A DNA stretch of 49,553 nt from a bacterium (GTDB lineage Bacteria > Patescibacteriota > Minisyncoccia > Phycocordibacterales > UBA6899), in contig JAYTCK010000045.1 of NCBI GenBank assembly GCA_043736515.1, positions 1-49,553 of the forward strand, written 5' to 3'. Made by a program: the position numbers and the translations under genes. The stretch's first letter is position 1, and each line of letters begins with the position of its first letter. Shown one piece after another: positions 1,633-16,560 of this stretch. Under the pieces are notes generated by a model. The model had not been told where the DNA came from, made no database searches, and saw nothing but the letters and a program-made list of their open reading frames with translations.

Positions 1633-1678
1633 GTTGTCCTTTTAATATAGAATGTGCGGCAATGAATGTCGAATAAAC

Positions 1679-1709
1679 AAAACAACCTCTCAAATTGAGA
1701 GGTTGTTTT
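1679..1709 (-). terminator. Intrinsic terminator after the O-antigen-ligase/TPR gene
   Basis: Inverted repeat AAAACAACCTCTC-aaatt-GAGAGGTTGTTTT. Confidence 0.85.
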
Positions 1710-1724
1710 TTGACTGTCATCAAT

Positions 1725-3911: not shown

Positions 3912-3948
3912 GGGATTTACTATATAGGGTAAATACGATGAGCGCAAA

Positions 3949-4656
3949 TTACATCACTAAGGACGAGTCGAGGCGTTTGTAGCCAGTATTTTGGCTTAGC
4001 TCCTCAAGCGCGTGGGCGCCCATGCCGGCAGTGCGAGCGAAGACGAAGAGCGCTTTGGCGGCAGCGGGTCGCATACCAAATGAAAGCGTGGCAGCAGCAA
4101 ATGCACCGTCTACATTGAGGGGAAGTTTCTTGCCCTTGGACTCATGGAGCGCCGCTTCAATAGCATAGGCTTTCTCAAACGGTGCGAGTGAAACCCCTGA
4201 TGCCTTTGCTTTTGAATAAATGAGCGTGGCGCGGGGATCTTCATCTTTATAGATTCGATGACCGAAGCCGGGGATATTTTTCTTGGCACTCATATATTCC
4301 GCAACTATCTCGCGTGCACCACCTTCTCGGGCGAGCATGTGCGCAGCAGCTTCCCCTGCTCCACCGTGCGCTTCCCCCATGGCGAGCATGCCGGCAGCCA
4401 TCGCAGTGTGAACCGAATTTCCCGAAGCCACACTTATACGCGGCACGTATGCAGAAGGTGTTTCAATGCCATGTTCGGCGGCAGCAACAAGCAGCGTATC
4501 GAGAAGTGCACGCTCGCCAAGAGTGGGCAGCTTTCCGCTGTACAACAAAAAAATAACTTCAGTGAAGGTATGAGTCTTCATCAGCTCTGTCATCTTCACG
4601 CCGTAAATAGTATGTTCCTCCTTTTCAGACTTACTAATCTTTGTTTCAAATTTCAT
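3949..4656 (-). CDS. Citryl-CoA lyase-like protein (citrate synthase fold, short form)
   Basis: 235 aa; motifs AAAEHG, EAHGGAG, IPGFGHRIYKDEDPR (catalytic His), LNVDG (catalytic Asp); N-terminus FETKIS resembles the Ccl/ACL lyase module. Confidence 0.8.
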   Translation of the reverse strand: MKFETKISKSEKEEHTIYGVKMTELMKTHTFTEVIFLLYSGKLPTLGERALLDTLLVAAAEHGIETPSAYVPRISVASGNSVHTAMAAGMLAMGEAHGGAGEAAAHMLAREGGAREIVAEYMSAKKNIPGFGHRIYKDEDPRATLIYSKAKASGVSLAPFEKAYAIEAALHESKGKKLPLNVDGAFAAATLSFGMRPAAAKALFVFARTAGMGAHALEELSQNTGYKRLDSSLVM

Positions 4657-4662
4657 AGATGT

Positions 4663-5565
4663 CTACTTACCTGCTAATTTTTTGAGTATATCAACAATGT
4701 CTTCCGGAGTCTGTGCAATGTGTGCACCTGCAGCTTTCAGTGCTGCGATCTTAGTGGACGCCTTACCTTTATCGCCCTCGATGATCGCCCCTGCGTGTCC
4801 GAGTGCCGTCCCCCACGGTAATGACTCCGCAAAGATTCCCGCGATGAGCGCGATAACCGGTTTTGTGATTTCTTTCGCAATAATCGCACTGGCGAGCGTG
4901 TCTTCATATGTCCCTCCCACTTCTCCAAACACGACAATTGCTTTTGTTTCAGGATCTTTTTCAAATAGCAGGGCAATATCGCGAAAGTCGCTTCCAATAA
5001 GCGGGTCCCCTCCGGTACCGATTATGGTGCTTTGTCCGATACCATTTTCCGTGAGCATCCGCGAGATCTCCGCTGTCATCCCCCCGCTCTTTGAGATCAC
5101 CCCAACTGATCCTTTCAAAAAAATCTTATCTGCAAGGCCCGATGAACCAATGCTTCCAATCTTGGAGTTCCCTGGCGAGAGTATCCCCACAGATGACGGC
5201 CCCACAATACGTACGCCGTTGTTTCGAGCGAGTGCAATCAGTCGTGCGACATGCAGTATGGGAACTCGTTCACTCAAAATGTTGATCAGGGGAATATTCG
5301 CCGCAATAGATTCTTCTCCCGCGGCACCAACAAATTTTCCTGGCACGGCGATGAGGGCAGTATTAATCTCAGGAAATTTTTTGACCGCCTCGGCGACCGT
5401 GTTGAAGATGGGAACTCCTTCCGGTGTCACTTCACCTCCCTTTCCTGGAGTAACACCGGCCTCCACCTTGGTTCCGTACGCAAGCATTTCACGAGCAGCA
5501 CGCGAGCCTTCTTTGCCGGTGATGCCCTGTACGACCACCCTGGTATTTTTATTAACGAGAATCAT
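4663..5565 (-). CDS. Citryl-CoA synthetase/ATP-citrate lyase alpha-like subunit (SucD fold, CoA-binding)
   Basis: VVVQGITGKEG, GVTPGKGG, IVGPSSVG, SKSGGM (ACL-type; SucD usually SRSGTL), GTGGD, GEVGG and phospho-His motif GHAGA. Confidence 0.85.
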   Translation of the reverse strand: MILVNKNTRVVVQGITGKEGSRAAREMLAYGTKVEAGVTPGKGGEVTPEGVPIFNTVAEAVKKFPEINTALIAVPGKFVGAAGEESIAANIPLINILSERVPILHVARLIALARNNGVRIVGPSSVGILSPGNSKIGSIGSSGLADKIFLKGSVGVISKSGGMTAEISRMLTENGIGQSTIIGTGGDPLIGSDFRDIALLFEKDPETKAIVVFGEVGGTYEDTLASAIIAKEITKPVIALIAGIFAESLPWGTALGHAGAIIEGDKGKASTKIAALKAAGAHIAQTPEDIVDILKKLAGK

Positions 5566-6620
5566 ATTTGCTCTTTCATAAGTTTCATTAAGCGTACCGC
5601 TGATTCTGCCATAGAAATTTCTGATCCGAACACATGCATGTTATATCCTTCGTTCGCGACAACTTCCATAAGCATTGCTCTCGCCTCTTCTTGTCTCGGG
5701 CCATCACGACGAATCACGATGGGGTAGGTGGGCTTTGGGGTGACCTTGCGCAAACCATCCACGAACCCGGACATTGTTTCAAATATATCTGTAAAGTTTG
5801 CCGTGCCACCGACAACCCATACTCCCTTTAAATTTGGCTGTCCGAGCACGCGCATCGTCAGTTCCTCAACGACCTGCCTCTTCGGGTTTCCTGAATACTC
5901 GACATAGTTTGCGGGCTTTCCACCCGAGCGCATGAGAATGTCGATGTTGAGCATTGATGCTCCGCCCCCTGAGGCGATTACGGCAATGTCTCCGCCAAGT
6001 TCGATAAATGGCCGCTCATTTGTTTCTTTGAGTGCATCATCGTAAATCACTTTTGCATCACCCGCAACAACACTGCCGTCGGCAAACACAAAGAGCGGAT
6101 TGATTTCGGCCATCAGTACTCCCTCTTCACAAAAAAGTTTCCAAAGTTTGTTCACGAGTAGAAAAACATCGTCCGTAATGGGTTCACCAAATGCTTGAGT
6201 GAGCGCTGAATGGGAAAGTCCCGCAAGAATATCAATAGGAATAATTTTTGCATTATGGACACCCGTCCCTCCCCGAGCATTGAGTGCAAGCACGGGAGAA
6301 CGATACGACGTAGAGTACGAAAAACTTACGTACATTTCTGTTTCTGGAACAATCACTTCTTCGGCGAGAAGTAGGGCGGGCAAATATCCGTCAATTGGGA
6401 GCGCAAAAAGCTTTTGTTTTACAGCCACGAATTCTTCGGCGCTTTCAACGAGAACAATCCCCCCTTTTGCTTTTCTGTCACTTGCAGGAACTTGCGACTT
6501 AAGCATGAGCGGGAACGAAAGTGCGGTTTTTTGGGTTTCGGGATGAATTAACTCAAACGCGGGTACTGCAATACCGTATTTTTCAAAAAGCGCCTTCCCT
6601 TCATGTTCGCATATCTTCAT
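5562..6620 (-). CDS. Citryl-CoA synthetase/ATP-citrate lyase beta-like subunit (ATP-grasp plus citrate-binding domain)
   Basis: EHEGKALF and RKAKGG, EINPL, DAK; C-terminal GGGASM, NYVEYSGNP, GGTANFTDI and RRDGP match the ACL citrate-binding domain rather than SucC (NGAGLAM, NFLDVGG). Confidence 0.85.
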   Translation of the reverse strand: MKICEHEGKALFEKYGIAVPAFELIHPETQKTALSFPLMLKSQVPASDRKAKGGIVLVESAEEFVAVKQKLFALPIDGYLPALLLAEEVIVPETEMYVSFSYSTSYRSPVLALNARGGTGVHNAKIIPIDILAGLSHSALTQAFGEPITDDVFLLVNKLWKLFCEEGVLMAEINPLFVFADGSVVAGDAKVIYDDALKETNERPFIELGGDIAVIASGGGASMLNIDILMRSGGKPANYVEYSGNPKRQVVEELTMRVLGQPNLKGVWVVGGTANFTDIFETMSGFVDGLRKVTPKPTYPIVIRRDGPRQEEARAMLMEVVANEGYNMHVFGSEISMAESAVRLMKLMKEQI

Positions 6621-6643: not shown

Positions 6644-8134
6644 TCAGAATTGGAAGTAAATAAATTGCTGGCTTTCAGTTTTTGCAAAAATAATAATGAG
6701 GAGCAGCGCTGTCGCAACCAGGAACCACTGAATGCCGTATCGCGCAAACCGATTTTCTATTGCAAAAATACGACTCACATAATTATGAATGTAGAGATAT
6801 TCGGCGACAAGAAGGAGGCCAATGCCCCCAAGCGCCCAATAAAAATCATAATCTGATTTACCCATAAAAACGTATTCCTGATAAAAGTCTGTGCGACTCA
6901 TGCCTTCCGGGAACGCATCCCACCCCGTAAACATTTGCCCAATGATGTGGAAAGCGCTGCCGATGTTTTCAGCACGAAAAAAGACCCATGTAAGACAGAT
7001 AAGGGTGAACGTCAGAAGCGTTTGGAGGAGTATGACAAACGAGCGGACAAAAACGGACGCGCCATTCATGCTCACGGCAACGCCAAGCTTCTTCATAAGT
7101 GTTTCGAGCACCAGATAACATCCATTGAGCCCGCCCCAAATCACGTATGTCCAATTTGCTCCATGCCAAAGACCGGAAAGAAGAAATGTCACCATGAGAT
7201 TCCAGATATGACGACGCTCTCCCTTTTTACTTCCACCCAGCGGCACATACACATAATCTTTAAACCATGTGGAAAGCGAAATATGCCACCTCCTCCAGAA
7301 CTCACCGACTGAGCGCGAGAAATACGGCTGGCGAAAATTTTCCATAAGTGAAAATCCCATCACGCGTGCGGAGCCAATCGCAATATAGGAGTACCCCGCA
7401 AAATCACAATAGATCTGAAATGCGAAAAAGACGGTGGCGATAACAAAGCTGGGTGCAAGATACTCCAAGGGATGGTCATAAACCTGATCCACAAATGGTG
7501 CGAGATTGTCCGCGATGAAGAGCTTCATAAAAAAACCGTACACCATGAGCCGCAGGCCCTTCCCGATACGCCCAAATTCGACGTTATGCTTCTCGCGAAA
7601 TTGGTGGAGTAGGTTTTGTGGTCGCTCGATGGGACCTGCAACGAGCTGCGGATAGAACATCACATACGTAGCTAGGATGAGAAAGTTCTTCTCTGGCTTC
7701 TGGTTGCCGCGATACACCTCAATGGTATAGCTCAGGCTTTGGAAGACGTGAAATGAGAGACCGATGGGGAGAACGAGTGAAAGTGCTTCAAGCGAATAGT
7801 TCCAGTGCAAAAAGTCAGCGAGTCCGGCGAGGTTGGCGTTAAAAAAATTAAAATACTTAAAAATAAAGAGCGCGCCAACATTCGCAATAATACTTGCAAC
7901 TAAAAATTGTCTCCTTCTCTTGCCCTCTGCATTCGCAATGGCAATTCCCGCAAAGTAATCTACGGTGATCGTAAACGCCAAAATGAGAATGAACGCCGGA
8001 ATGAACGCCATGTAGAAATAGCAGCTCGCAGCAAGGAGCCACAATACGCGGTATCGATACGGCAGCATAAAATACATGGCCGTAACGATGGGGAAAAAGA
8101 TGAGAAAATTAATGGAGTTGAACAGCATAGACAA
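6644..8134 (-). CDS. MBOAT O-acyltransferase (AlgI/PatA/DltB-like)
   Basis: MLFNS start; LPIGLSFHVFQSLSY, PQLVAGPIER, QIYCDFAGYS, ENFRQPY, FWRRWHISLSTWFKDY, SGLWHGANWT (catalytic His), FIYFQF end. Confidence 0.95.
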   Translation of the reverse strand: MSMLFNSINFLIFFPIVTAMYFMLPYRYRVLWLLAASCYFYMAFIPAFILILAFTITVDYFAGIAIANAEGKRRRQFLVASIIANVGALFIFKYFNFFNANLAGLADFLHWNYSLEALSLVLPIGLSFHVFQSLSYTIEVYRGNQKPEKNFLILATYVMFYPQLVAGPIERPQNLLHQFREKHNVEFGRIGKGLRLMVYGFFMKLFIADNLAPFVDQVYDHPLEYLAPSFVIATVFFAFQIYCDFAGYSYIAIGSARVMGFSLMENFRQPYFSRSVGEFWRRWHISLSTWFKDYVYVPLGGSKKGERRHIWNLMVTFLLSGLWHGANWTYVIWGGLNGCYLVLETLMKKLGVAVSMNGASVFVRSFVILLQTLLTFTLICLTWVFFRAENIGSAFHIIGQMFTGWDAFPEGMSRTDFYQEYVFMGKSDYDFYWALGGIGLLLVAEYLYIHNYVSRIFAIENRFARYGIQWFLVATALLLIIIFAKTESQQFIYFQF

Positions 8135-8137
8135 TAA

Positions 8138-9247
8138 TTAGCGTGACGGGCACAGTGCATTATTTTTTAACAGCTCATCTTTTGTGTACTGATAGAGTAT
8201 CTGTGCCATAGCGCGATGTCCCTCCTCGTTAAAATGCCATGAGCAATCTACGCTGAGACACTTGCCATAACGCGCTCGGGCTTCACCGAGTTGATCCGCA
8301 GGATTAAAAACAGGAATTTGTTCTCCTGAAAGAAAATCAATAAGCTTAGTCATGCGTGGGTTATCCTTCCATGCACCTCGCTTCGCATAATCAGTCAATT
8401 CGCTTGGAACCATCACAACAGCAAAATGTTGCCCGTTTGCTGTGACGAGCTTACTAAACTTCGAAAAAATTTCGAACGTAAAAGTGTAATATTGGGAATC
8501 CTCTCCCATCTTCTCCGCTAATCCATCTTGGCTCTGCTTCGGCGGGAGCACGGTGGCACGATCGCCCTCAAGAATCCCGATCAACTCAAGTGTGTTTATG
8601 AATATTTCATTAGCAATGAGCTTGTGAAAGACAAACTTCGGGAGTTCAAATTTGAGTAAAAATTCTTTTAATCCTACCGCGCGACGCCCTTCGCCATAAT
8701 GCTCAAGATCAAATCCCGCTTTAAGGAGATTGTCGTCATAATCAGCCGTAAAAAAAACAAGCACATAGTCTGGGTCAAAGGGAGTAATCTTCTTCTTATA
8801 CGTTTGATATTCAGTAAATGTTCCGGCACTTCCCACGCCAAAATTCATAACCTCAAAACGCGTCTTTCCACACACACCACTCGTATTCAGTGTCGTCTCA
8901 AGAAGCTCAACAAAGTTTCGATAATAATCCACTTGTAGTGCTGCAAGTCCCGAATCCCCGAGCATCGCAATTCGGATCGTACTCGTCGGCTTCTCGATCG
9001 CCATCTCATCGCCGATGTACCCAAGACTATTGGTGCGGATATAGTTTTTTCTCGCGGAAAGCGCATCCCATGCATATCCATCATAGTTCTTCACATGAAT
9101 TGAACCTACGTCAGGGTCGGTGCGCAGAAGCGGAAAGGCAGTCTTCCCGATAACGCGAATTCCTGCTTCCCAATATGCCAGGGTCGCAAAAACGACCAGT
9201 CCGACAATGAGCATTTTTTTGACCACAGTTTTCCCCATATGTTGCAT
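8138..9247 (-). CDS. SGNH/GDSL-family protein with N-terminal membrane anchor (probable O-acetylation partner of the MBOAT)
   Basis: N-terminal TM; TNSLG, RIAMLGDS (block I), MNFGVGS, PDYVLV, HFNEEGH (block V). Start may be 9238. Confidence 0.85.
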   Translation of the reverse strand: MQHMGKTVVKKMLIVGLVVFATLAYWEAGIRVIGKTAFPLLRTDPDVGSIHVKNYDGYAWDALSARKNYIRTNSLGYIGDEMAIEKPTSTIRIAMLGDSGLAALQVDYYRNFVELLETTLNTSGVCGKTRFEVMNFGVGSAGTFTEYQTYKKKITPFDPDYVLVFFTADYDDNLLKAGFDLEHYGEGRRAVGLKEFLLKFELPKFVFHKLIANEIFINTLELIGILEGDRATVLPPKQSQDGLAEKMGEDSQYYTFTFEIFSKFSKLVTANGQHFAVVMVPSELTDYAKRGAWKDNPRMTKLIDFLSGEQIPVFNPADQLGEARARYGKCLSVDCSWHFNEEGHRAMAQILYQYTKDELLKNNALCPSR

Positions 9248-9262
9248 GAAGCCCCTAGGGCA

Positions 9263-9304
9263 AGATAGACAAATGGTACCTTTCTTTGTAACTTTGGTGA
9301 AGAT
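9263..9304. repeat. 42-bp direct repeat, copy 1 (contains a minus-strand promoter-like element)
   Basis: AGATAGACAAATGGTACCTTTCTTTGTAACTTTGGTGAAGAT, identical to 10312-10353. Minus strand reads TTCACC-17 nt-TACCAT, upstream of the SGNH gene. Confidence 0.95.
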
Positions 9305-9382
9305 GCGCGCAACATAGGCGTTAATACCTTCGACAAAATACCAGCTTTGAAAAATCGATGTAGTTTTCTGGCAGCTCCCGTG

Positions 9383-10018
9383 CTAAAGCGTTGTGGTATA
9401 TTTGGTTATCTCGACAAGCGCGCGATGAATTTCCTTCACGGGGTCGATGTGCTCAAACGTAGGCAAGATCTCAAGTGGAATCTTGGAGACTTCGTCGACC
9501 GCGGCGAGCGCGACGATCCAACTTGTTGGATCAATATTTGAGTATGTGGATTGCCAGTTCGTAAGCCACGTGCGCACATCAGCATTGTTGGCAATGCATG
9601 CAAGGTCAAAATAGTCTTTGTATTCTTCTCTTCCGCATATCGCAGAAAGTTTCATAATCGTGATGTCCTCTAGGCTCACCATGCGAAACGAGTCAACAAG
9701 AGTGACAGGCTTAAACAGAGGATCAAATCGAGATATGAAAGAAACCTTTACTCCGTCGATATTGCACCACAGTGTATTCTTTTCTTCGAAGATTATTTCG
9801 AGGCGCGCCGCGCCAAACAGCTCGCTTAATCGTCGACGCAGTTTTTCCACATCAATATCCTCAAGGATAAAATAATCAAGATCAGCACTCTTTCTATGCC
9901 CGATGAGCAAAGCAAGTGCCGTGCCTCCTGCAAGATAATATTGCTCGGGGAGTGATGTGAATACAGTCTTTGCGATTGCCAACATCTCAGGACTGACGGT
10001 CTCGTGATGAAGTGTCAT
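9383..10018 (-). CDS. AbiEii/AbiGii-family nucleotidyltransferase (type IV TA toxin-like, DUF1814/MenT-like)
   Basis: YYLAGGTALALLIGHRKSADLDYF signature; later MKLSAICGREEYKDYFD (K..A...R...KD..D). Confidence 0.9.
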   Translation of the reverse strand: MTLHHETVSPEMLAIAKTVFTSLPEQYYLAGGTALALLIGHRKSADLDYFILEDIDVEKLRRRLSELFGAARLEIIFEEKNTLWCNIDGVKVSFISRFDPLFKPVTLVDSFRMVSLEDITIMKLSAICGREEYKDYFDLACIANNADVRTWLTNWQSTYSNIDPTSWIVALAAVDEVSKIPLEILPTFEHIDPVKEIHRALVEITKYTTTL

Positions 10019-10248
10019 GAAAAAAGATAGGTCTTAAGATAGTGATATTTTCGTTTTGAAATTGCAGTGGTTTTCATTTCTTCAAATACATGTTTCACCG
10101 TAGCTCTATCATATTTTTTAATAAGCCATGAGATAAGAAAAATTCCCCCATACGAAAGTACGCGCTGCATGACAAATGAGTCCGGAAGCGTTGCGATCTT
10201 TTCGGGTTGAATATCCCAAAGCACTGTTTTTACATCGGGTGATTTCAT
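10015..10248 (-). CDS. Small DUF6922-like protein (putative cognate antitoxin)
   Basis: LWD..., FVMQRVLSYGG pattern; 4-bp ATGA overlap with the toxin gene. Start set at MKSPD (10248) because an extended -10 overlaps the longer ORF-track start. Confidence 0.7.
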   Translation of the reverse strand: MKSPDVKTVLWDIQPEKIATLPDSFVMQRVLSYGGIFLISWLIKKYDRATVKHVFEEMKTTAISKRKYHYLKTYLFS

Positions 10249-10254
10249 ATATTC

Positions 10255-10263
10255 ATTATACCA
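10255..10263 (-). promoter_or_regulatory. Extended -10 promoter, leaderless-type, for the TA pair
   Basis: TGG-TATAAT-GAATAT-ATG on the minus strand. Confidence 0.65.
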
Positions 10264-10311
10264 CAGTTTGAACAAAATAGGAATGTCACGAAAACTATTG
10301 AAGCCTCACTG

Positions 10312-10353
10312 AGATAGACAAATGGTACCTTTCTTTGTAACTTTGGTGAAGAT
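10312..10353. repeat. 42-bp direct repeat, copy 2
   Basis: Identical to 9263-9304; offset 1049 bp. Confidence 0.95.
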
Positions 10354-10378
10354 TCACATGTTCTTATAGGTATCGTAT

Positions 10379-11761
10379 ATGTCTACTTTTGCTGTCATTC
10401 TTGCGGGAGGCTCCGGTACGAGGCTGTGGCCCCTTTCCCGGAAAAACTTCCCAAAGCAGTTTTTGGATCTGTATGGAGACAAATCGCTGCTTCAGCACAC
10501 GTTCACGCGCATGGCAGAGCTAGCATCACCTGAAGGAGTCTATGCTGTCACCAATCAGGACCACTTCTACAATGTCCTCAATCAGCTCCGCGAAGTTTTC
10601 CCCGGCTTTCCCGAGGACCACATCATTGTGGAGCCCGAAGGTCGCAATACCTTCCCTGCAATCGTGCTTGCCCTGCGTACGCTTTCCGATCGTGATGCAA
10701 AAGGTAATGACCCCATCATTTTCACTCCCGCTGATGCTTATATCGCAAATGAGGAGGAGTATCGTGCCACACTCACTCTTGCGAGTCTTCATGCGGGAAA
10801 AGGTTTAGTTGTTGTAGGAATAACACCAACTTCCCCCGAAACGGGCTATGGTTATATTGAGGTTGGTGAGGATGCAGGCGGAATATTGCGCACAAGCGCA
10901 TTCCACGAAAAGCCTGATGCGGCTACTGCAGAGGCGTATCTCAATTCGGGGATGCATCTTTGGAACTCCGGACTGTATGTGGGCACGCATGACGCATTCC
11001 TTGCAGAAATTCTGGAGCACACACCCGAAGTGCACAAGCTGTACGAACAAGGATTCGCTGCACTTTCTGAAAATTTTGGCGCATTACCAAATCTTTCAGT
11101 TGACCACGCGCTCGCTGAGCGGTCACGCAACGTGTATGTTGCACAGGGAGCATTCGGATGGAGCGATGTTGGCTCGTTCGATGCGCTTGCAAAAGTACTC
11201 GAAGAGCGGGGAACTTCCTACCCCAAACACGTGAGCGTTGATTCGACGGGAATTTTTGTACACAGCGCAGAGGGCAGGCTGGTGGTAACAGTTGGCGTGG
11301 ACGACCTCGTCATTGTCGATCATCGTGATAGTCTCCTTATCCATAAAAAAGGGAGGAGCGATGAAGTTGGTGCTGTGCTCAAATCACTGATCGCTGCTGG
11401 ACACAAAGAAGCCGAGCATAATCTTCTTGTGCATCGGCCATGGGGCCAGTACCACGTGTTGATCGATTCGCCGAACTACAAAGTGAAGAAGATTGTAGTC
11501 TATCCCGGCGCAAAGTTAAGCCTCCAGTCGCACGAACATCGCGCAGAGCATTGGGTCGTCGTTCACGGCACCGCAGAAGCCACAGTGGGCGAAGATGTGC
11601 TTACCCTCAATGCAAATGAAAGCGCATACATCCCCGCCGGCACACAACACCGCCTTGCAAACCCCGGAAACATCAACCTTGAGATCGTCGAAGTACAAAC
11701 AGGCACCTACCTCGGCGAAGACGACATCAAACGCTACGAAGACAACTATAAACGCAGATAA
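10379..11761 (+). CDS. manC: Mannose-1-phosphate guanylyltransferase / mannose-6-phosphate isomerase
   Basis: ILAGGSGTRLWPLSRKNFPKQF, EPEGRNT, PETGYGYI, WNSG, GWSDVGS; C-terminal cupin RPWG, LSLQSHEHRAEHWVVV, EVQTGTYLGEDDIKR. Confidence 0.95.
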   Translation: MSTFAVILAGGSGTRLWPLSRKNFPKQFLDLYGDKSLLQHTFTRMAELASPEGVYAVTNQDHFYNVLNQLREVFPGFPEDHIIVEPEGRNTFPAIVLALRTLSDRDAKGNDPIIFTPADAYIANEEEYRATLTLASLHAGKGLVVVGITPTSPETGYGYIEVGEDAGGILRTSAFHEKPDAATAEAYLNSGMHLWNSGLYVGTHDAFLAEILEHTPEVHKLYEQGFAALSENFGALPNLSVDHALAERSRNVYVAQGAFGWSDVGSFDALAKVLEERGTSYPKHVSVDSTGIFVHSAEGRLVVTVGVDDLVIVDHRDSLLIHKKGRSDEVGAVLKSLIAAGHKEAEHNLLVHRPWGQYHVLIDSPNYKVKKIVVYPGAKLSLQSHEHRAEHWVVVHGTAEATVGEDVLTLNANESAYIPAGTQHRLANPGNINLEIVEVQTGTYLGEDDIKRYEDNYKRR

Positions 11762-11763
11762 TC

Positions 11764-11788
11764 AAAACACCGATCTTGTCGGTGTTTT
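11764..11788. terminator. Bidirectional intrinsic terminator between convergent genes
   Basis: AAAACACCGA-tcttg-TCGGTGTTTT. Confidence 0.85.
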
Positions 11789-11798
11789 TCTTTTTATC

Positions 11799-12557
11799 TT
11801 ACGAAAGCAGTATTGGTATTTTTTGTTTTATATTGGCATTTATGTTTACAATGTCGGGTCGTTTCTTCAAAAAATTAATGACATCTGAAGCAGCAAAATC
11901 ATTGTTCTCTAAATAAAGCGCGTCGTAGACCTCGCTGATCACTCGATAATCTTCTGGAGTATCAAGGGTGAGCCTCAGTTCCGGCCACAGCATCTCCCCT
12001 TTCGCCCGAAGCGCCAATATTTTATATCGCTTCGGGTCCGTCTTGATATGCACTGTCACATGCTCGCGCATTTCTGGGTGTGTTGCTTCGTTATACCCAT
12101 CTTCAAGTGCTTTTATCGTGAATACTGTTGCATCAAATCCGTCGGGTACGGGGGCATCCCCCATCTCATTTGAAACCAAATCAAAATTCCCTTCAAAAAG
12201 TTTAAGGATAAGATCGTCGACAATTCTGTGGTCAACGAGCGGACTGTCTCCCATGCCGCGGTACACGATATCTGCATCACAACTTTTTGCTGCTTCATAT
12301 ACGCGAGCGAGCACATCGGCTTCACTGCCGCGATAACATCGGTACTGACGCTCCGCGCAGAAGGTTTCGATCGCATCATCATTGGGATTGACCGTTGTGG
12401 CGATGATTATCTCATCAATGTATTTACTACGGCTGATACGCTCCACTATACGGGCGAGCACAGGCTCACCCGCAAGTGGCATGAGCACCTTGCCTGGAAG
12501 TCTCGTCGATCCCATGCGCGCGGAAATAGTGGCAATAGCACGTCTTCCGTTAATCAT
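11799..12557 (-). CDS. SpsF-like acylneuraminate cytidylyltransferase-family protein, copy 1
   Basis: ARMGSTRLPGKVL, RGSEADVLAR, REHVT, ELRLTLDTPEDY. Real start MINGRR (12557); the ORF-track extension overlaps the upstream gene. Confidence 0.85.
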   Translation of the reverse strand: MINGRRAIATISARMGSTRLPGKVLMPLAGEPVLARIVERISRSKYIDEIIIATTVNPNDDAIETFCAERQYRCYRGSEADVLARVYEAAKSCDADIVYRGMGDSPLVDHRIVDDLILKLFEGNFDLVSNEMGDAPVPDGFDATVFTIKALEDGYNEATHPEMREHVTVHIKTDPKRYKILALRAKGEMLWPELRLTLDTPEDYRVISEVYDALYLENNDFAASDVINFLKKRPDIVNINANIKQKIPILLS

Positions 12558-12558
12558 G

Positions 12559-13773
12559 TTATTTCTTATTAAAAAATGCGATGGTTTGTTGTAATATCTC
12601 TGCCTGTTTTTCCGCTCGTTCCCACTCCCAATAATTTGTCTTGAATGCGAGAATCTGTTGCTGTACTTTTTCCGCGACAGGACAGAGTCCGGGTTTCCAT
12701 GCTTGGAGGGTACCTTTATAGGTAGCCTTAATAACCTCTTCCTTGCCCGCAAAGTTCATCTCTTGGAACATTGGTTCTTGGTAAGTAAGTTTCCATGTCG
12801 CATAGATACCATCACCACCCAATTCTTTGAATTTCAGACGAAAATCAGCCCAAGAAACAGGTGCGTCGACGAGTCGTACGGCGAGCCCCCAATACACGTT
12901 TTTATATCCTTCTGGTGTGTACTGTGGCACAAGCCAGTCGCATCCTTTCATCGCCTTCATAAACAAGTTTGCCGCATCAATACGTCGCTCTACAAGTTCA
13001 TCCATGCGTTCGATCTGCCCAAGAACCACAGCTGCGCAAAGATCCGGCATGCGATAGTTATAACCCATTGAAGCGTGACGATTGTAATTTGGATTTTGAA
13101 TATCGTCTTTAGAAATCTTGCCTGCTTTTGCAGAAACCGACGCATAGCCAAGAACAGAAAATCGCCGCACACGATCTGCCGCATCGACATCATTCGTGCA
13201 CACCATTCCTCCTTCTCCGGCGGTAAGGTGTTTTGTGCTTTGAAAACTGAAGCTTGAGTAGTGCCCGATTGTACCAGCGAGCCGCCCTTTGTATTCCCCC
13301 AAAAAACACTGCGCATTGTCTTCAATGACTGCGAGGTTGTGCTTCTTTGCAATCTCCATAATGGGATCCATATCAGGTGAGAGTCCATAGAGTGCAACAG
13401 TAATGATGGCCCTTGTTCGGGGAGTAATTAATTTTTCAATCGACTTCGGGTCAATCTGTAATGTCTCTTCGATAACATCCGCAAACACCGGTACTGCATC
13501 CTGTTGCAACACCGCCATTGTTGTAGCAGCCATTGTTAGTGGGGGCACAATTACTTCATCACCAGCCCGAACGCCGGCTGCATACAGCGCAGAGTGGAGT
13601 GTCGCTGTGCCATTGATGTGCCCCACCGAATACTGTACCCCTATACGACCTGAAAAAGCTTCTTCTGCCCTCTTGAGCATTTTAGTATCACGCGGTCCTC
13701 GGAATTGAGAAAGAAGTACTTCTTTTACATATGCTTCTTCCTTTTCACTGATGCGTTTTATGTTGGGTTTCAT
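12559..13773 (-). CDS. DegT/DnrJ/EryC1/StrS PLP aminotransferase, copy 1
   Basis: NGTATLH, GDEVIVP, IEDNAQ, FSFQSTKHLTAGEGG (PLP Lys), GYNYRM. Confidence 0.93.
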   Translation of the reverse strand: MKPNIKRISEKEEAYVKEVLLSQFRGPRDTKMLKRAEEAFSGRIGVQYSVGHINGTATLHSALYAAGVRAGDEVIVPPLTMAATTMAVLQQDAVPVFADVIEETLQIDPKSIEKLITPRTRAIITVALYGLSPDMDPIMEIAKKHNLAVIEDNAQCFLGEYKGRLAGTIGHYSSFSFQSTKHLTAGEGGMVCTNDVDAADRVRRFSVLGYASVSAKAGKISKDDIQNPNYNRHASMGYNYRMPDLCAAVVLGQIERMDELVERRIDAANLFMKAMKGCDWLVPQYTPEGYKNVYWGLAVRLVDAPVSWADFRLKFKELGGDGIYATWKLTYQEPMFQEMNFAGKEEVIKATYKGTLQAWKPGLCPVAEKVQQQILAFKTNYWEWERAEKQAEILQQTIAFFNKK

Positions 13774-13794
13774 ATAGGTGTGATAACTTAAGCA

Positions 13795-14433
13795 TTACAG
13801 CAATTGTGTCACCGCGCCATAAGCGGGACGAAGCGAAAGATGACGATGCACATTAAAGCCGTTCTTGTTAATTTTCTTGGGATCGCTATACCGTCCAGTA
13901 TAAATACGGTCCCCGTTCTTGTCCTTGTCGCTACACCAAATGAAGTCATTTTTCCAGAGCAGTGCACCCTCATATAAATAATAATAGACAAAAAAAACAT
14001 ACGCAGTGAGCACCGCCGAGGGAAATTGTTCACCTTTTTTAAGTTTTCCCTCTATAATATCGGGTCTAACTCCACGTGTTTCCTTAATGACGTTCTTTCG
14101 GATAAGATACCATCGGTTTTTAAGCGTTGTGCTCTGTGCAAATTTTTCATTAAGATACCAATCCTGATTATAAAAGCAGGGTTCATTCTTTGCAGGATCA
14201 AATCCAAAGTAGGCGCGCATGTTGTTAAGCGTCAAAGGCTTTCCGTCTTTTGATTTTGTAACACCGAGTATCAGCAAATAATCCTTCGCTGCTTTGTTAA
14301 GCACTTGCGCATCGTAGTTTACTTTGGGAATAGTTAATGCTGGCGCCCCAATAAATTCACTTGCAATCAAGCTGAGCTCATCGGGCCCAATAAAATTTTT
14401 ACCCATTATTTTTTTTGCATCCTGCCAATTCAT
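13795..14433 (-). CDS. Hypothetical soluble protein (213 aa)
   Basis: Intact ORF, 1-bp gap from the upstream gene, protein-like composition (FYNQDWY, WYLIRK, GDRIYTG); no family confidently recognised. Confidence 0.75.
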   Translation of the reverse strand: MNWQDAKKIMGKNFIGPDELSLIASEFIGAPALTIPKVNYDAQVLNKAAKDYLLILGVTKSKDGKPLTLNNMRAYFGFDPAKNEPCFYNQDWYLNEKFAQSTTLKNRWYLIRKNVIKETRGVRPDIIEGKLKKGEQFPSAVLTAYVFFVYYYLYEGALLWKNDFIWCSDKDKNGDRIYTGRYSDPKKINKNGFNVHRHLSLRPAYGAVTQLL

Positions 14434-14434
14434 A

Positions 14435-14770
14435 TTATTTCTTTTCACTACTTAATTTAGTCATAAAATATTTTGCTCGATTTTGTATATGTTTATTTCC
14501 ATCCATTTCACTCCAGCGAACCAGCTCTGCCTCTTTCAGGAAATCAGTCAGTCCTAAGAGTAAAAACGTTTCGGGAGGAAGCGTAGCAGTAAGATCATAT
14601 TTTCGAAAAAGCTTTCCGATTGCGGTACGAAGATTTTGAGTACGAGTAACACCGCCCTCGCCGAGCTCACCAAACATTTCCATAGTCGTCGCAAAGACGA
14701 GGTGATTATACAAAATGCCCACCATTGCCTTCTCCTCTAGTTCGGTCAAATTCAAACTTTCTTTTTCCAT
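14435..14770 (-). CDS. Hypothetical protein (111 aa)
   Basis: Intact ORF with its own TGT-TAGGAT hexamer 7 nt before the ATG; no recognisable motif. Confidence 0.7.
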   Translation of the reverse strand: MEKESLNLTELEEKAMVGILYNHLVFATTMEMFGELGEGGVTRTQNLRTAIGKLFRKYDLTATLPPETFLLLGLTDFLKEAELVRWSEMDGNKHIQNRAKYFMTKLSSEKK

Positions 14771-14788
14771 GTCGATTATCCTAACACA

Positions 14789-15352
14789 CTATTTATTTTG
14801 CAAATAGAAGATTCCCTCCTGCCATAAAGCGACATCTCCCTTTTGTTGATATGCAGCAATACGCTCCAGCTCGGCGACAATAGCCTCTTCGTGGGTCTTA
14901 CTGTGAAATGAGGGGAATTTATACTCGGGGACCATTGTAAGTTCAATATTTACGTTCATATCACGCATGGCCTTCACAAAAGTGAGGAAAGCGCGATATT
15001 GATGAAACTCGGTTGTCACAAGGAGCAAACTTCTCCAACCGTGTTTTTGAGCAAGGTGAAGTGTGGATTCTGCTTCTTCCCGCGTGTGCGCTCCTGTCTC
15101 CTCCCAGACAATATGCTCTTCTGGTAAACCGAGCGCAACCAATTTTCGGATCAGTACGTGTGCGGGAAGGCTTCCGTATGCATGGTCGTGCGCACTGCTT
15201 GTCACCACAACCTTCGGAGCTAGCCCTAAATGATAGAGTTCCGCAACTTTAAGAGTACGGTGAAAGCGGTCCCCCGCTAGCAAAACGATAGCGTCGGCTT
15301 TTCGGGGCGCATCCGTCAAAAGCAATTTTTTTAATTCTTCAAATTCGTTCAT
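14789..15352 (-). CDS. YdcF/ElyC (DUF218) family protein
   Basis: ADAIVLLAG, ETGAHTREEA (S.NT.EN-like), LLVTTEFHQYRA. Start set at MNEFE (15352). Confidence 0.8.
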   Translation of the reverse strand: MNEFEELKKLLLTDAPRKADAIVLLAGDRFHRTLKVAELYHLGLAPKVVVTSSAHDHAYGSLPAHVLIRKLVALGLPEEHIVWEETGAHTREEAESTLHLAQKHGWRSLLLVTTEFHQYRAFLTFVKAMRDMNVNIELTMVPEYKFPSFHSKTHEEAIVAELERIAAYQQKGDVALWQEGIFYLQNK

Positions 15353-15360
15353 AAATAAAA

Positions 15361-15383
15361 CTAAGGGCACAGTGTGCCCTTAG
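15361..15383 (-). terminator. Intrinsic terminator-like hairpin after the NeuB-family gene
   Basis: CTAAGGGCAC-agt-GTGCCCTTAG followed on the minus strand by TTTTATTT. Confidence 0.7.
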
Positions 15384-15389
15384 TATGCT

Positions 15390-16457
15390 TTAACCGAGCG
15401 ATTCCCAGTGAATCGCTTCTCCTTCTTCGATATCTCTCTTTGCGGTTAGTCCCGCGACTTCATTTTTGTATTTTGGATAGATACCAAGCGCCGGACGGAG
15501 CTCAATAAGTCGCTCAACACCGATGATTTCGCCCTGCTTGATCGGAGCGGCGGCGTAAAGTGAGCGACGCTGCACAACGACCGTTTCCGACTCTTCGGCA
15601 ACAACTTCTTTGCGTGCACTGCCGAGGGCCGACTCCATATCACGAATCCTTACCATCATCTCGGCAAACTGCTTCGGCTCCATCGAGTGGGGGTGGTCAG
15701 GGCCAGCGTTCTTTTTATCGTCGGTAAAATGCTTCTCAATCACTTTCGCGCCACGTGCAATTGCACCGAGAACTACAGTATCGGAGTGTGTGTGATCGGA
15801 ATAGCCGACCATGACCTCAAATGCTGTCTTATAAGTATCCATCACACGAATGTTCGCACTTTCGATCTTTGAGGGATAATTGGTGATGCACTGAAGAAGC
15901 GCGACGTCTTTATTGCCTGTTGATTCGATCACGCGAAGTGCCTCATCGACTTCGGCAAGCGTGGACGCACCGGTTGCGAGTACGACAGGTTTCCCTTTTT
16001 TTGCAATGTACTCGACCATTTCAAGCCAAGTAATATCGCCCGAACCAATTTTGTAGAAAGGAACATTCGCTTCATCCATAATGTCCACCGCCCCATAATC
16101 ATATGGACTCGATGTGGCGAGGATGCCGATCTCTCGGCAATAGTCGAAAAATTCTTTATGCCACTCGCGTGGAAATTCCGCCGACTTAAATACTTCCTCA
16201 ACCGGCTTGCCCCAACTACCATGTACACCTTTCAGCTTCATTGATGCGAATCCTTTGCCGGAAACTATTTTTTTTGCAAGAAAGCTCTGAATTTTCACAA
16301 CATCCGCCCCGGCTTCTTTAACAAGTTTCGCAAGCTTCTTTGCCTTCTCGATGCTTCCATCAAAATTGCCACCGAGATCCGCGATAACGAGCGCAGGCTG
16401 CCCTTCCCCCACAAGTCGGCTGCCAATCTTAAACGTTTTTGAGAATCTTTCTGTCAT
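15390..16457 (-). CDS. N-acetylneuraminate synthase family (NeuB/PseI/SpsE) with C-terminal SAF domain
   Basis: GADVVKIQ, YKIGSGDIT, LATGA, LLQCITNYP, GYSDHT, IEKHFT, GPDHPHS, RRSLYA, ELRPALG. Start MTERF (16457) follows a GGAAGG SD. Confidence 0.95.
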   Translation of the reverse strand: MTERFSKTFKIGSRLVGEGQPALVIADLGGNFDGSIEKAKKLAKLVKEAGADVVKIQSFLAKKIVSGKGFASMKLKGVHGSWGKPVEEVFKSAEFPREWHKEFFDYCREIGILATSSPYDYGAVDIMDEANVPFYKIGSGDITWLEMVEYIAKKGKPVVLATGASTLAEVDEALRVIESTGNKDVALLQCITNYPSKIESANIRVMDTYKTAFEVMVGYSDHTHSDTVVLGAIARGAKVIEKHFTDDKKNAGPDHPHSMEPKQFAEMMVRIRDMESALGSARKEVVAEESETVVVQRRSLYAAAPIKQGEIIGVERLIELRPALGIYPKYKNEVAGLTAKRDIEEGEAIHWESLG

Positions 16458-16560
16458 GGTATTACCTTCCAAAAATGAATTAATGACTACAAATCTATAC
16501 CGCATCCTACACAGAACAGCAACATTCGCAACAAGAGAAAGGTGACAAATTCACTACTAT

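What the first reader, a model, noticed from the sequence alone, without database searches (positions are those of the whole stretch)
9263..10353. AbiEii-type toxin/antitoxin cassette bounded by an exact 42-bp duplication of a promoter
Seen: identical 42-bp repeats 1049 bp apart enclose only the DUF6922-like and nucleotidyltransferase genes. The repeat contains a minus-strand TTCACC-17-TACCAT element, so one copy sits in front of the SGNH-MBOAT operon and the other in front of the TA pair. Weaker similarity (TGAAGCC) extends leftward. No integrase or transposase is in the window. Inference: the cassette entered by recombination or target duplication at a promoter without silencing the downstream operon. 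It could excise cleanly by repeat recombination, with post-segregational toxicity stabilising it. AbiEii/MenT family members are known TA or abortive-infection toxins, some acting on tRNA.
Basis: partly seen in the sequence, partly recalled or inferred. Interest (0 to 1): 0.65.

Follow-up and report, generated by a model that had tools for sequence, protein, structure and literature searches.

The report
Toxin-antitoxin cassette inserted with target duplication
A small, self-contained toxin-antitoxin gene pair has been inserted into the shared control region between two sugar-coat genes of a Patescibacteria genome, duplicating 42 bp so that both neighbours keep their upstream sequence; related strains still carry the uninterrupted site, so this is a clean example of a known but poorly understood way in which selfish gene pairs move.

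Summary
Exact 42-bp direct repeats at 9263-9304 and 10312-10353 enclose only a 77-aa DUF6922-like gene and a 211-aa AbiEii/MenT-fold nucleotidyltransferase gene.

The predicted empty allele exists. JGI contig L007 and Logan contigs from other metagenomes read SGNH, one 42-bp copy, then manC, with the window's outer flanks.

Three points need correcting:
- **Age.** The 42 bp (46 bp with TGCC) is invariant in all alleles I could read as sequence, even where flanking genes are about 17-27% diverged. Repeat identity reflects constraint and does not date the event.
- **Promoter.** The pair has its own extended -10 promoter (TGnTATAAT, 6 nt, ATG; leaderless), conserved in about 30 Patescibacteria loci. 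It does not need the repeat.
- **Antitoxin.** It is not AbiEi.

In co-occurring strains a 1.66-kb tract containing the cassette is about 99.8% identical, inside flanks with dense differences. The filled allele therefore spreads by homologous recombination.

Four of 37 other loci of this family, and other small cassettes nearby (one with a PemK/MazF-like toxin, one DUF3800), are bracketed by unrelated 20-219-nt host duplications at gene starts or stops.

This matches "insertion with long target duplication", described for restriction-modification systems. It is a new member of a known kind. The insertion mechanism is unresolved.

The parts
9263..9304 (.). Left copy of the 42-bp repeat, directly upstream of the SGNH start codon region
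   Evidence: Its left flank (..CATGAAGCCCCTAGGGCA) matches the empty-site flank in L007.
10312..10353 (.). Right copy of the 42-bp repeat, 25 nt upstream of the manC ATG
   Evidence: Its right flank (TCACATGTTCTTATAGGTATCGTATATG) is identical to the empty site in L007. The same position relative to manC is seen in L002-4.
9383..10018 (-). Toxin gene: 211-aa nucleotidyltransferase with the AbiEii/MenT fold
   Evidence: PF08843 at 1.6e-13. PADLOC AbiEii at 2e-8. AF2 model with pLDDT 94.5. Foldseek hits to JHP933, MenT3/TglT, MenT1 and MenT4 (E 3.5e-8 to 1.4e-4, TM about 0.53). Invariant G31 G32 T33, D46 and D48.
10015..10248 (-). Putative antitoxin gene: 77 aa, DUF6922-like, all-helical. Its stop overlaps the toxin start (ATGA).
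   Evidence: DUF6922 at 26.4 bits against a cut-off of 27. Homologues precede the toxin gene in 37 of 38 loci examined. No PADLOC or NCBIfam hit. AF2 pLDDT 78, no PDB fold match.
10249..10287 (-). The cassette's own promoter region: extended -10 TGGTATAAT (10255-10263) 6 nt before the ATG, implying a leaderless mRNA
   Evidence: The same TGnTATAAT plus 6-7 nt plus ATG arrangement occurs in about 30 of 38 loci. Homology with L002, L005 and L006 begins here, at about 10278-10287.
10288..10311 (.). 24-nt cassette-proximal junction sequence, containing TGAAGCC (10299-10305)
   Evidence: GGCTTCA also occurs in the SGNH 5' leader (9247-9253). X13 has the variant GCTTCA and L002 the diverged GTCTCA at the same place. 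Similarity is marginal, p about 0.05.
9305..9382 (.). 78-nt spacer between the toxin stop and the left repeat copy; origin unknown
   Evidence: No similarity to the sequence downstream of the toxin gene in L002-L006. No consensus terminator.
8138..9247 (-). Left neighbour: SGNH/GDSL-like gene, first gene of the SGNH-MBOAT pair (MBOAT at 6644-8134)
   Evidence: 88% aa identity to the SGNH gene that abuts the single 42-bp copy in L007.
10379..11761 (+). Right neighbour: manC (mannose-1-phosphate guanylyltransferase / mannose-6-phosphate isomerase)
   Evidence: 89% aa identity to manC in L007.

Best explanation
A self-contained toxin-antitoxin module was inserted into the divergent control region between the SGNH-MBOAT operon and manC of a Patescibacteria surface-glycan locus. 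The module comprises its own extended -10 promoter, a leaderless 77-aa DUF6922-like antitoxin gene, and a 211-aa MenT/AbiEii-fold nucleotidyltransferase toxin gene overlapping it by 4 nt.

The insertion duplicated at least the 42-bp conserved core of that region. SGNH-MBOAT keeps one full copy and manC keeps the other. [quoted passage not shown]

Shown: the repeat, the empty allele, the module's autonomy, and the absence of mobility genes, terminal inverted repeats or a shared att core.

Shown: both copies of the core are identical to every other allele whose sequence I hold. The identity therefore reflects purifying selection on both copies, not recency.

Shown: the filled allele is shared between co-occurring strains as a 1.66-kb near-identical tract inside flanks with dense differences. 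It now spreads by homologous recombination in the flanks.

Inferred: the toxin blocks translation by nucleotidylating tRNA 3' ends, as MenT toxins do, and the small protein neutralises it. Addiction (post-segregational killing) would penalise loss of the cassette.

Inferred and unresolved: how the first insertion happened. The two candidates are illegitimate joining of foreign DNA at a staggered break with fill-in, or single-crossover integration of a circularised fragment that carried a diverged copy of the target.
For: Repeat and gene content.

Empty allele: L007, with manC 89% and SGNH 88% aa identical to the window. Independent empty-site contigs in runs X10 (278 bp, exact) and X11 (249 bp, 29 differences, none listed inside the core).

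Invariance of the core in the window (both copies), L002-4 and L007, against about 73-88% flanking nt identity.

Autonomy: shared homology among window, L002, L005 and L006 runs only from about 10287 to the toxin stop. The TGnTATAAT + 6 nt + ATG arrangement is conserved.

Toxin fold. MenT mechanism from PMC7450476, PMC10435456 and PMC11375011.

Two copies per genome and no visible empty subpopulation.

Recombination tract 9066-10728 with 4 SNPs, bounded by 19 differences in 8963-9065 and 12 in 10729-10777.

Recurrence: four of 37 other loci of this family are bracketed by unrelated host duplications. These are L035 (71 nt, the start of the prepilin peptidase gene), L034 (219 nt), L013 (47+ nt) and L030 (26 nt, the 3' end of an upstream gene). 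L012 (25 nt) and L045 (20 nt) add two more at other spacings. Random placements reached this level in 1.7% of cases.

Precedent and criteria: PMC2853133.
Against: Relatives L002-4, and a contig in X13, carry the same pair next to manC with only one core copy and a SWIM-domain gene instead of SGNH on the other side. The order of events is therefore not proven: insertion first and replacement of the left side later, or the reverse.

No read or contig other than the window itself spans the left junction.

No excision product, circle or transcript data could be obtained. All runs are held only as k=31 contigs, and no RNA run holds the region.

The rest of the genome could not be searched for further copies of the 42-mer. 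The genome is not in the representative-genome collection, and the metagenome scan found only L007.

Toxicity and neutralisation are untested.
Confidence: 0.75

Rival explanations
1. The toxin-antitoxin pair was already next to manC, as in the L002-type allele, and what moved was the SGNH-MBOAT operon. It was imported to the far side of the pair together with its own copy of the conserved core, for example by homology-facilitated illegitimate recombination. On this reading the repeat is a by-product of operon gain, not of cassette insertion.
For: L002-4 and X13 have manC, one core copy and the TA pair, with no SGNH. The TA-to-core junction has a similar architecture in the window and in X13/L002, which suggests one ancestral right junction. 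The locus is mosaic between strains.
Against: SGNH-core-manC with no TA occurs in several mutually divergent strains (L007/X10 and X11; X16 also shows an SGNH start beside a single core). The sequence downstream of the toxin stop in the window has no similarity to that in L002-4, so L002-type is not the recipient. The same TA family, and other small cassettes, are repeatedly bracketed by target duplications elsewhere.
Confidence: 0.12
2. The 42-46-bp core is an attachment site. The cassette was integrated there by a site-specific recombinase acting in trans (a tyrosine integrase or the host Xer system), and the repeats are attL and attR.
For: The core is extraordinarily conserved, and the TA pair is found at this same core in two different allele types. 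The repeats are exact.
Against: No recombinase gene was found among the scanned neighbours (window 607-6620 and 11799-16505). There are no tRNA genes in the window. Other members of the same family are flanked by duplications of unrelated sequence and very different lengths (20-219 nt), so there is no common core. Conservation of the core is equally seen in empty sites, where it sits between two divergently oriented genes, as expected of a regulatory element.
Confidence: 0.06
3. The structure is an assembly artefact. The population really holds an empty chromosome site plus a separate 1049-bp circular or tandem molecule, which has the same k-mer content.
For: Logan k=31 unitigs break at the 42-bp repeat in X1-X3, so they cannot by themselves distinguish the two resolutions.
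Against: Cassette depth equals flank depth in three samples, and the repeat is at about 2x. A free circle would not be expected to hold that ratio. The X4 contig 10154-10554 joins antitoxin, repeat and manC directly. The 49.5-kb window assembly resolved both junctions.
Confidence: 0.03
4. The two copies are independent instances of a dispersed regulatory motif (an operator of a glycan regulon) and have nothing to do with insertion.
For: The element is under strong constraint and sits upstream of glycan genes.
Against: Only two copies occur in 49.5 kb, even with 3 mismatches allowed. The empty allele shows that the two copies correspond to one ancestral copy, whose left and right flanks are now split between them.
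Confidence: 0.03

Closest known systems
Insertion with long target duplication of restriction-modification gene complexes (Nobusato et al. 2000, Gene 259:99; Furuta, Abe & Kobayashi 2010, PMC2853133)
   Same: An addiction-type gene pair with no mobility genes is bracketed by direct repeats longer than 30 bp. The repeats correspond to a single copy at an empty site in a related genome. Repeat length varies from case to case. Repeats tend to span a neighbour's start or stop, so the neighbours stay intact.
   Different: The cargo is a toxin-antitoxin pair, not a restriction-modification system. The host is a Patescibacteria (CPR) genome. The duplicated target is an ultra-conserved divergent control region, so both copies stay identical under selection. 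In the paper library, 9 papers hold 'long target duplication' together with 'toxin'. By title they concern restriction-modification systems or are general TA reviews, and the two I checked only cite Nobusato 2000.
MenAT / AbiE nucleotidyltransferase toxin-antitoxin systems (DUF1814/PF08843; PMC7450476, PMC10435456, PMC11375011)
   Same: The toxin matches PF08843 and PADLOC AbiEii models. Its model superposes on MenT1, MenT3/TglT, MenT4 and JHP933. The GG[ST] and DxD active-site residues are invariant. The antitoxin gene lies upstream and overlaps the toxin gene.
   Different: The toxin is shorter (211 aa against about 290 for MenT3/4 and AbiEii). There is no sequence-level PDB match better than E 0.045. 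The antitoxin is a 77-aa DUF6922-like helical protein, not AbiEi/COG5340, with no fold match in the PDB. The operon is leaderless.
Minimal mobile elements / allelic cassette exchange by natural transformation (Neisseria; from my own knowledge, not checked in a paper here)
   Same: An accessory cassette sits between conserved flanking genes, with alternative alleles (empty, TA, TA plus SWIM gene) exchanged by homologous recombination in the flanks.
   Different: Minimal mobile elements are not defined by a duplication of the target. Here a duplication marks the original insertion.

Membership tests
Insertion with long target duplication (criteria of PMC2853133) | Direct repeats longer than 30 bp flank the insert | tested here: met
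   42/42 nt.
Insertion with long target duplication (criteria of PMC2853133) | A related genome has an empty site with one copy of the repeated sequence and matching outer flanks | tested here: met
   L007. Contigs in X10 and X11.
Insertion with long target duplication (criteria of PMC2853133) | The insert is shorter than 20 kb, holds the complete addiction module, and holds no mobility gene | tested here: met
   The 1007-nt insert holds only the two genes. No integrase or transposase domain in the thirteen neighbouring genes scanned with Pfam; one of them matched no family. No terminal inverted repeats at the insert ends.
Insertion with long target duplication (criteria of PMC2853133) | The repeated sequence is not a dispersed repeat of the genome | tested here: inconclusive
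   Only two copies in the 49.5-kb window. The rest of the genome is not available, as it is not in genome contigs.
AbiE (AbiEi/AbiEii) type IV TA / abortive infection system | AbiEii (PF08843/DUF1814) nucleotidyltransferase toxin with the GG[ST]...DxD motif | tested here: met
   51.6 bits against a cut-off of 22.5. PADLOC AbiEii. G31 G32 T33, D46 and D48 are invariant in 46 sequences.
AbiE (AbiEi/AbiEii) type IV TA / abortive infection system | AbiEi antitoxin (COG5340: winged helix-turn-helix plus C-terminal domain, about 200 aa) | tested here: not met
   The partner is 77 aa, DUF6922-like at 26.4 bits, with no PADLOC or NCBIfam hit.
AbiE (AbiEi/AbiEii) type IV TA / abortive infection system | Abortive-infection phenotype against phage; toxicity neutralised by the partner | not testable with these tools
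   Needs expression and phage assays.
MenAT nucleotidyltransferase TA family | MenT-like fold | tested here: met
   Foldseek: MenT3/TglT 3e-6, MenT1 1.2e-5, MenT4 4e-5, TM 0.51-0.54. The best hit is JHP933 at 3.5e-8.
MenAT nucleotidyltransferase TA family | Nucleotide addition to tRNA acceptor ends; antitoxin-induced auto-phosphorylation of the active-site Ser/Thr | not testable with these tools
   T33 of the invariant GGT is the candidate acceptor by analogy with MenT1 T39 (PMC11375011). This is inference only.
Site-specific integrative element (att sites) | A recombinase gene in the element or nearby, and a common att core across related insertions | tested here: not met
   No recombinase domain. 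No tRNA gene. Flanking repeats of related cassettes are unrelated in sequence and length.
Transposon / insertion sequence | Terminal inverted repeats, a transposase, and a short target duplication of fixed length | tested here: not met
   No inverted repeat pairs the insert ends. No transposase. The duplication is 42 nt here and 20-219 nt in relatives.

The most novel reading that the evidence does not exclude
Patescibacteria, and perhaps many naturally transformable bacteria, have a general recombinase-free route that installs self-contained, leaderless toxin-antitoxin and defence cassettes exactly at gene boundaries, with long target duplications of variable length. In about 400 kb of fetched Patescibacteria loci I saw about ten such events: AbiEii-type pairs, a pair with a PemK/MazF-like toxin, a MazE-like antitoxin with a small partner gene, DUF3800, a DUF4143 ATPase and an AstE-like gene. 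If the cassettes or their toxins themselves provoke the breaks or the repair that insert them, as Kobayashi's group proposed for restriction enzymes, these would be autonomous minimal mobile elements without a recombinase.
Probability: 0.25. Interest if true: 0.7.

Novelty: new member of a known kind. Interest (0 to 1): 0.45.

Why it matters
How chromosomal toxin-antitoxin pairs move without any recombinase of their own is a long-standing loose end. This locus provides a filled site, several empty sites, a third allele and evidence of spread by flanking recombination, all within one clade. The same family shows several independent repeat-bracketed insertions in other Patescibacteria.

That makes the "long target duplication" route, so far documented for restriction-modification systems, testable for toxin-antitoxin cassettes.

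The locus also pinpoints a 42-46-bp element that must be functionally important, because both duplicated copies have been kept identical. It is a candidate bidirectional promoter or operator in a phylum whose transcription signals are almost unstudied. The leaderless TGnTATAAT-N6-ATG architecture is a second concrete handle on Patescibacteria gene expression.

Tried and rejected
- **Exact-protein look-ups.** The toxin and the SGNH protein were not on record. manC gave only a Logan contig that starts at base 1 of the repeat.
- **Metagenome scan.** A scan with a 28-mer of the core found only one contig, L007. L002-4 were reached through the toxin protein instead.
- **Own genome.** It is not among the GTDB representatives, where the best toxin match is 60%. 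Further copies of the 42-mer in the genome could not be searched.
- **Transcripts.** No RNA run holds the region.
- **Read-level data.** All DNA runs are k=31 contigs, so junction-spanning reads, excision junctions and circles could not be looked for.
- **Homology beyond the 42 bp.** GGCTTCA on the SGNH side is marginal (p about 0.05) and the manC side is not significant (p about 0.5). I therefore do not claim a longer original duplication, only that it is possible.
- **Promoter and terminator scan.** The consensus scan calls nothing in the repeat or the 78-nt spacer.
- **Rfam.** Nothing in the region or in L002.
- **PDB sequence search with the toxin profile.** Nothing below E 0.045.
- **Antitoxin.** The word-based search found only two close homologues. 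The model has no fold match.
- **Second empty site.** I searched for an empty site of the Moranbacteria case L035. The apparent 1387-nt "joint" in four runs is better explained by a variant pilin allele that joins the upstream repeat copy. Depths add up only that way, so no empty site was found.
- **uORF.** I rejected a peptide-coding explanation for conservation of the core (15-codon uORF at 10322-10369). Conservation is at the nucleotide level, and the uORF's C-terminus changes in L002.
Full report
**1. The observation.** The window holds two identical 42-nt direct repeats (AGATAGACAAATGGTACCTTTCTTTGTAACTTTGGTGAAGAT) at 9263-9304 and 10312-10353, spaced 1049 nt start to start. No third copy appears even with three mismatches allowed, and none appears in 100 shuffles.

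Only two genes lie between them, both on the minus strand:
- a 211-aa ORF (9383-10018) that matches Pfam AbiEii (PF08843, 51.6 bits);
- a small ORF that matches DUF6922 at 26.4 bits, just under the cut-off of 27.

Gene callers in relatives start the small gene at the ATG that corresponds to 10248, which gives 77 aa. Its stop overlaps the toxin start (ATGA at 10018-10015).

To the left are an SGNH/GDSL-like gene (8138-9247) and an MBOAT gene (6644-8134). To the right is manC (10379-11761).

The wider context is a cell-envelope and nonulosonic-acid glycan locus: MurB, an O-antigen-ligase-like protein, a CMP-sugar cytidylyltransferase, a DegT aminotransferase and NeuB. None of the ten neighbouring genes scanned showed a recombinase domain, though one of them (13795-14448) matched no family. 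The window has no tRNA gene.

Named relatives of MurB and of the toxin are all Patescibacteria of the Parcubacteria/Paceibacteria type.

**2. The repeat is real.** Logan k=31 unitigs of three sediment metagenomes break at the repeat, as they must for a repeat longer than k. The depths are as follows.

| Run | 42-bp unitig | Flanks and cassette |
|---|---|---|
| X2 | 24.1 | 9-12.6 |
| X3 | 26.9 | 9.6-12.9 |

In both runs the repeat is at about twice the depth of the flanks, and cassette depth equals flank depth. That fits two copies per genome. It argues against a free circle beside an empty site, and against a sizeable empty-site subpopulation.

In a fourth run from another study (X4), one 401-bp contig reads antitoxin, repeat and manC without a difference.

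**3. The empty site exists.** A scan of JGI metagenome contigs with a 28-mer from the core returned one contig, L007. Read in the window's orientation, it gives:
- the SGNH start (…CATAAAGCCCCCTAGGGCA);
- one exact copy of the 42-mer;
- TCACATGTTCTTATAGGTATCGTATATG and manC.

The left flank of the window's left copy and the right flank of its right copy are the two flanks of this single copy. L007's manC and SGNH are 89% and 88% identical to the window's proteins (83% and 81% at the DNA level), yet the intergenic region is almost unchanged.

Contigs laid on L007 give four more alleles:
- **X10:** an exact 278-bp empty-site contig.
- **X11:** a 249-bp empty-site contig from a more divergent strain. 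It has 29 differences, none listed within the core.
- **X16:** the core plus TGCC, followed by a different leader and the SGNH start.
- **X13:** the core plus TGCC, followed by sequence like the TA-bearing allele described next.

**4. A third allele.** The closest toxin relatives with context (L002-4, 89% aa identity) carry the same pair next to manC. They have a single exact copy of the 42-mer at the same distance from manC. The other side holds a SWIM-domain gene rather than SGNH, and there is no second copy.

The core (42 nt, or 46 with TGCC) is therefore invariant in every allele I could read as sequence. The TA coding DNA differs by about 12% and manC by 12-27%. Two consequences follow:
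- The perfect identity of the window's two copies reflects constraint and does not date the insertion.
- Both copies are being kept intact, which suggests each serves its adjacent gene.

The element is very likely part of the divergent promoter/operator region. Promoter activity is therefore inferred from conservation and is not shown.

**5. The cassette is autonomous.** Homology between the window and relatives in unrelated contexts (L005, L006) runs only from about 10287 to the toxin stop at 9383. In about 30 of 38 loci the antitoxin ATG is preceded, at 6-7 nt, by an extended -10 (TGnTATAAT). In the window this is TGGTATAAT at 10255-10263. The pair therefore brings its own promoter, and the spacing implies a leaderless mRNA. 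It does not depend on the 42-bp element, which in L002-4 lies about 245 nt further upstream.

**6. The proteins.** The toxin model is confident (pLDDT 94.5). Its best PDB fold matches are JHP933 of H. pylori (3.5e-8), MenT3/TglT, MenT1 and MenT4 of M. tuberculosis, with TM about 0.53. The GGT and DxD residues are invariant in 46 family members.

MenT toxins add nucleotides to tRNA acceptor ends. They are switched off by antitoxin-induced auto-phosphorylation of an active-site Ser/Thr (PMC7450476, PMC10435456, PMC11375011). By analogy T33 is the candidate acceptor here, which is inference.

The partner protein is not AbiEi. It is a 77-aa helical protein with no PADLOC, NCBIfam or PDB fold match. 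The system works like a MenAT/AbiE pair, but it is not a canonical AbiE system.

**7. Spread between strains.** In X2 and X3 a second strain coexists with the window strain.

| Window interval | Differences between the two strains |
|---|---|
| 8963-9065 | 19 |
| 9066-10728 (contains the cassette) | 4 |
| 10729-10777 | 12 |

A near-identical 1.66-kb tract that contains the cassette, embedded in flanks with dense differences, is the signature of recent homologous recombination. The filled allele is being passed between strains through its flanks.

**8. Recurrence.** I fetched 40 loci from representative genomes using a toxin alignment. For each I measured the longest exact word shared by the flank upstream of the antitoxin gene and the flank downstream of the toxin gene.

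Besides the window (42 nt), four of 37 other loci stand out:

| Locus | Repeat | What is duplicated |
|---|---|---|
| L035 | 50 nt exact (71 nt at 90%) | ATG and first about 21 codons of the prepilin peptidase gene |
| L034 | 26 nt exact (219 nt at 84%) | a whole small membrane-protein gene; the downstream copy has a stop |
| L013 | 47+ nt at 79% | cut by the contig end |
| L030 | 26 nt at 85% | 3' end of the upstream gene (release-factor-like by eye; not scanned) |

In 1157 random placements of the same geometry, 1.7% reached 15 nt. That gives a binomial p of about 0.004 for four of 37.

A general scan for exact repeats added more cases:
- L012: 25 nt, around this TA pair plus a second pair (a MazE-like antitoxin and an 80-aa gene with no Pfam match).
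- L045: 20 nt, around a distant AbiEii pair.
- L024: 39 nt, around a 99-aa gene plus a PemK/MazF-like toxin gene.
- L027: 69 nt, around a DUF3800 gene.
- L032: 60 nt, around an AstE-like gene.
- L006: 71 nt at 83%, around an AAA_14/DUF4143 ATPase gene; the repeats are copies of the manC 3' end.

The repeats are unrelated to each other, vary from 20 to 219 nt, and typically span a neighbour's start or stop.

**9. Comparison with what is known.** This is the pattern that Nobusato et al. (2000) and Furuta et al. (2010, PMC2853133) named "insertion with long target duplication" for restriction-modification systems. Its features are:
- repeats longer than 30 bp and of variable length;
- no mobility genes;
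- an empty site with one copy in a related genome;
- repeats often spanning start or stop sites;
- occurrence mostly in naturally competent species.

The mechanism is unknown, and the authors suggested DNA breakage.

The window meets three of the four criteria I drew from that paper. The fourth, uniqueness of the repeat in the genome, could be tested only within the 49.5-kb window.

In the paper library, 9 papers hold "long target duplication" together with "toxin". By title they concern restriction-modification systems or are general TA reviews, and the two I checked only cite Nobusato 2000. I therefore rate this a new member of a known kind.

**10. Mechanism and what stays open.** A transposase is unlikely: there are no terminal inverted repeats, and the duplications are long and variable. 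A site-specific recombinase is also unlikely: there is no recombinase gene and no common core.

Two routes remain:
- **Route (a):** illegitimate capture of foreign DNA at a staggered break, with fill-in of the overhangs.
- **Route (b):** single-crossover integration of a circularised fragment that carried a diverged copy of the target.

The repeat edges coincide almost exactly with the edges of the invariant core. This is easier to explain if the originally homologous or duplicated segment was longer and only the constrained part stayed identical. However, the evidence for similarity beyond 42 bp is weak: GGCTTCA gives p about 0.05, and the manC side is not significant.

The order of events relative to the L002-type allele is also unproven (rival 1, 0.12). 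Excision through the repeats and addiction remain plausible but untested.

The finding is a clean and well-documented example rather than a new principle. Its added value lies in extending this insertion mode to toxin-antitoxin cassettes, and in the hint that the mode is common in Patescibacteria.

Noticed in passing
window 10249-10263; the corresponding positions in L002-L038: The antitoxin ATG is preceded at 6-7 nt by an extended -10 (TGnTATAAT) in about 30 of 38 loci across Patescibacteria. This implies a leaderless TA operon and gives a concrete promoter consensus for this phylum.
   Followed up: partly
L002 about 1198-1385 (also L003, L004): A 200-nt insert lies between the conserved core and the TA promoter. 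It is absent from the window and from the X13 allele, and is rich in related hairpins. A 231-nt stretch containing it (L002 1170-1400) folds at -90.6 kcal/mol, z = -4.1. There is no Rfam match, so it may be a MITE-like or structured-RNA element.
   Followed up: partly
L006 979-1049 and 2415-2485: An AAA_14/DUF4143 ATPase gene (1233-2386) sits right beside a 76%-identical copy of this TA pair. It is bracketed by 71-nt repeats (83% identical) that are copies of the manC 3' end (window 11640-11789).
   Followed up: partly
L024 2750-3460; L012 5702-7336; L027 9-1507; L032 8401-9350; L045 5714-7026: Other small cassettes are bracketed by exact 20-69-nt duplications of a neighbour's start or stop. 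They are a 99-aa gene plus a PemK/MazF-like toxin; the AbiEii-type pair plus a MazE-like antitoxin and an 80-aa gene; a DUF3800 gene; an AstE/AspA-like gene; and a distant AbiEii pair in a Pseudobdellovibrionaceae MAG.
   Followed up: partly
window 8963-9065 and 10729-10777: Two short patches carry 19 and 12 differences between two strains that coexist in runs X2 and X3 and are otherwise near-identical across 9066-10728. This is a sharp recombination mosaic in the glycan locus.
   Followed up: partly
window 10322-10369 (and 9273-9317 in the left copy): A 15-codon upstream ORF starts inside the core (MVPFFVTLVKIHMFL*) and ends 9 nt before the manC ATG. The left copy encodes a variant tail (…KMRAT*). 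Conservation is at the nucleotide level, so a peptide role seems unlikely.
   Followed up: partly
window 9219-9228 and 10260-10269: An exact 10-nt match (ACCACAGTTT; AAACTGTGGT on the minus strand) links codons 6-9 of SGNH and the -10 region of the TA promoter, offset by 11 nt from the main repeat register. It is absent from L007 and only partial in L002. It may be chance or a trace of recombination.
   Followed up: no
window 3949-6620: Three genes with ATP-citrate-lyase / succinyl-CoA-ligase-like domains (ATP-grasp_2 + Citrate_bind; CoA_binding + Ligase_CoA; Citrate_synt C-terminal) lie directly upstream of MBOAT on the same strand. They may supply acetyl-CoA for glycan O-acetylation, which would be unusual for a Patescibacteria genome.
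   Followed up: no
L035 634-887: In Crystal-Geyser-type groundwater runs the 3' part of the type IV pilin gene next to the TA cassette exists as at least two very different alleles. A 236-nt replacement is carried by the majority, which suggests a hypervariable pilin C-terminus.
   Followed up: no
one search hit list: Many Logan contigs carrying this toxin family are only about 1.0-1.3 kb, roughly the size of the cassette. This would fit frequent graph breaks at cassette boundaries (repeats or presence/absence polymorphism). The collection's median contig is also about 1 kb, so this is not evidence by itself.
   Followed up: no
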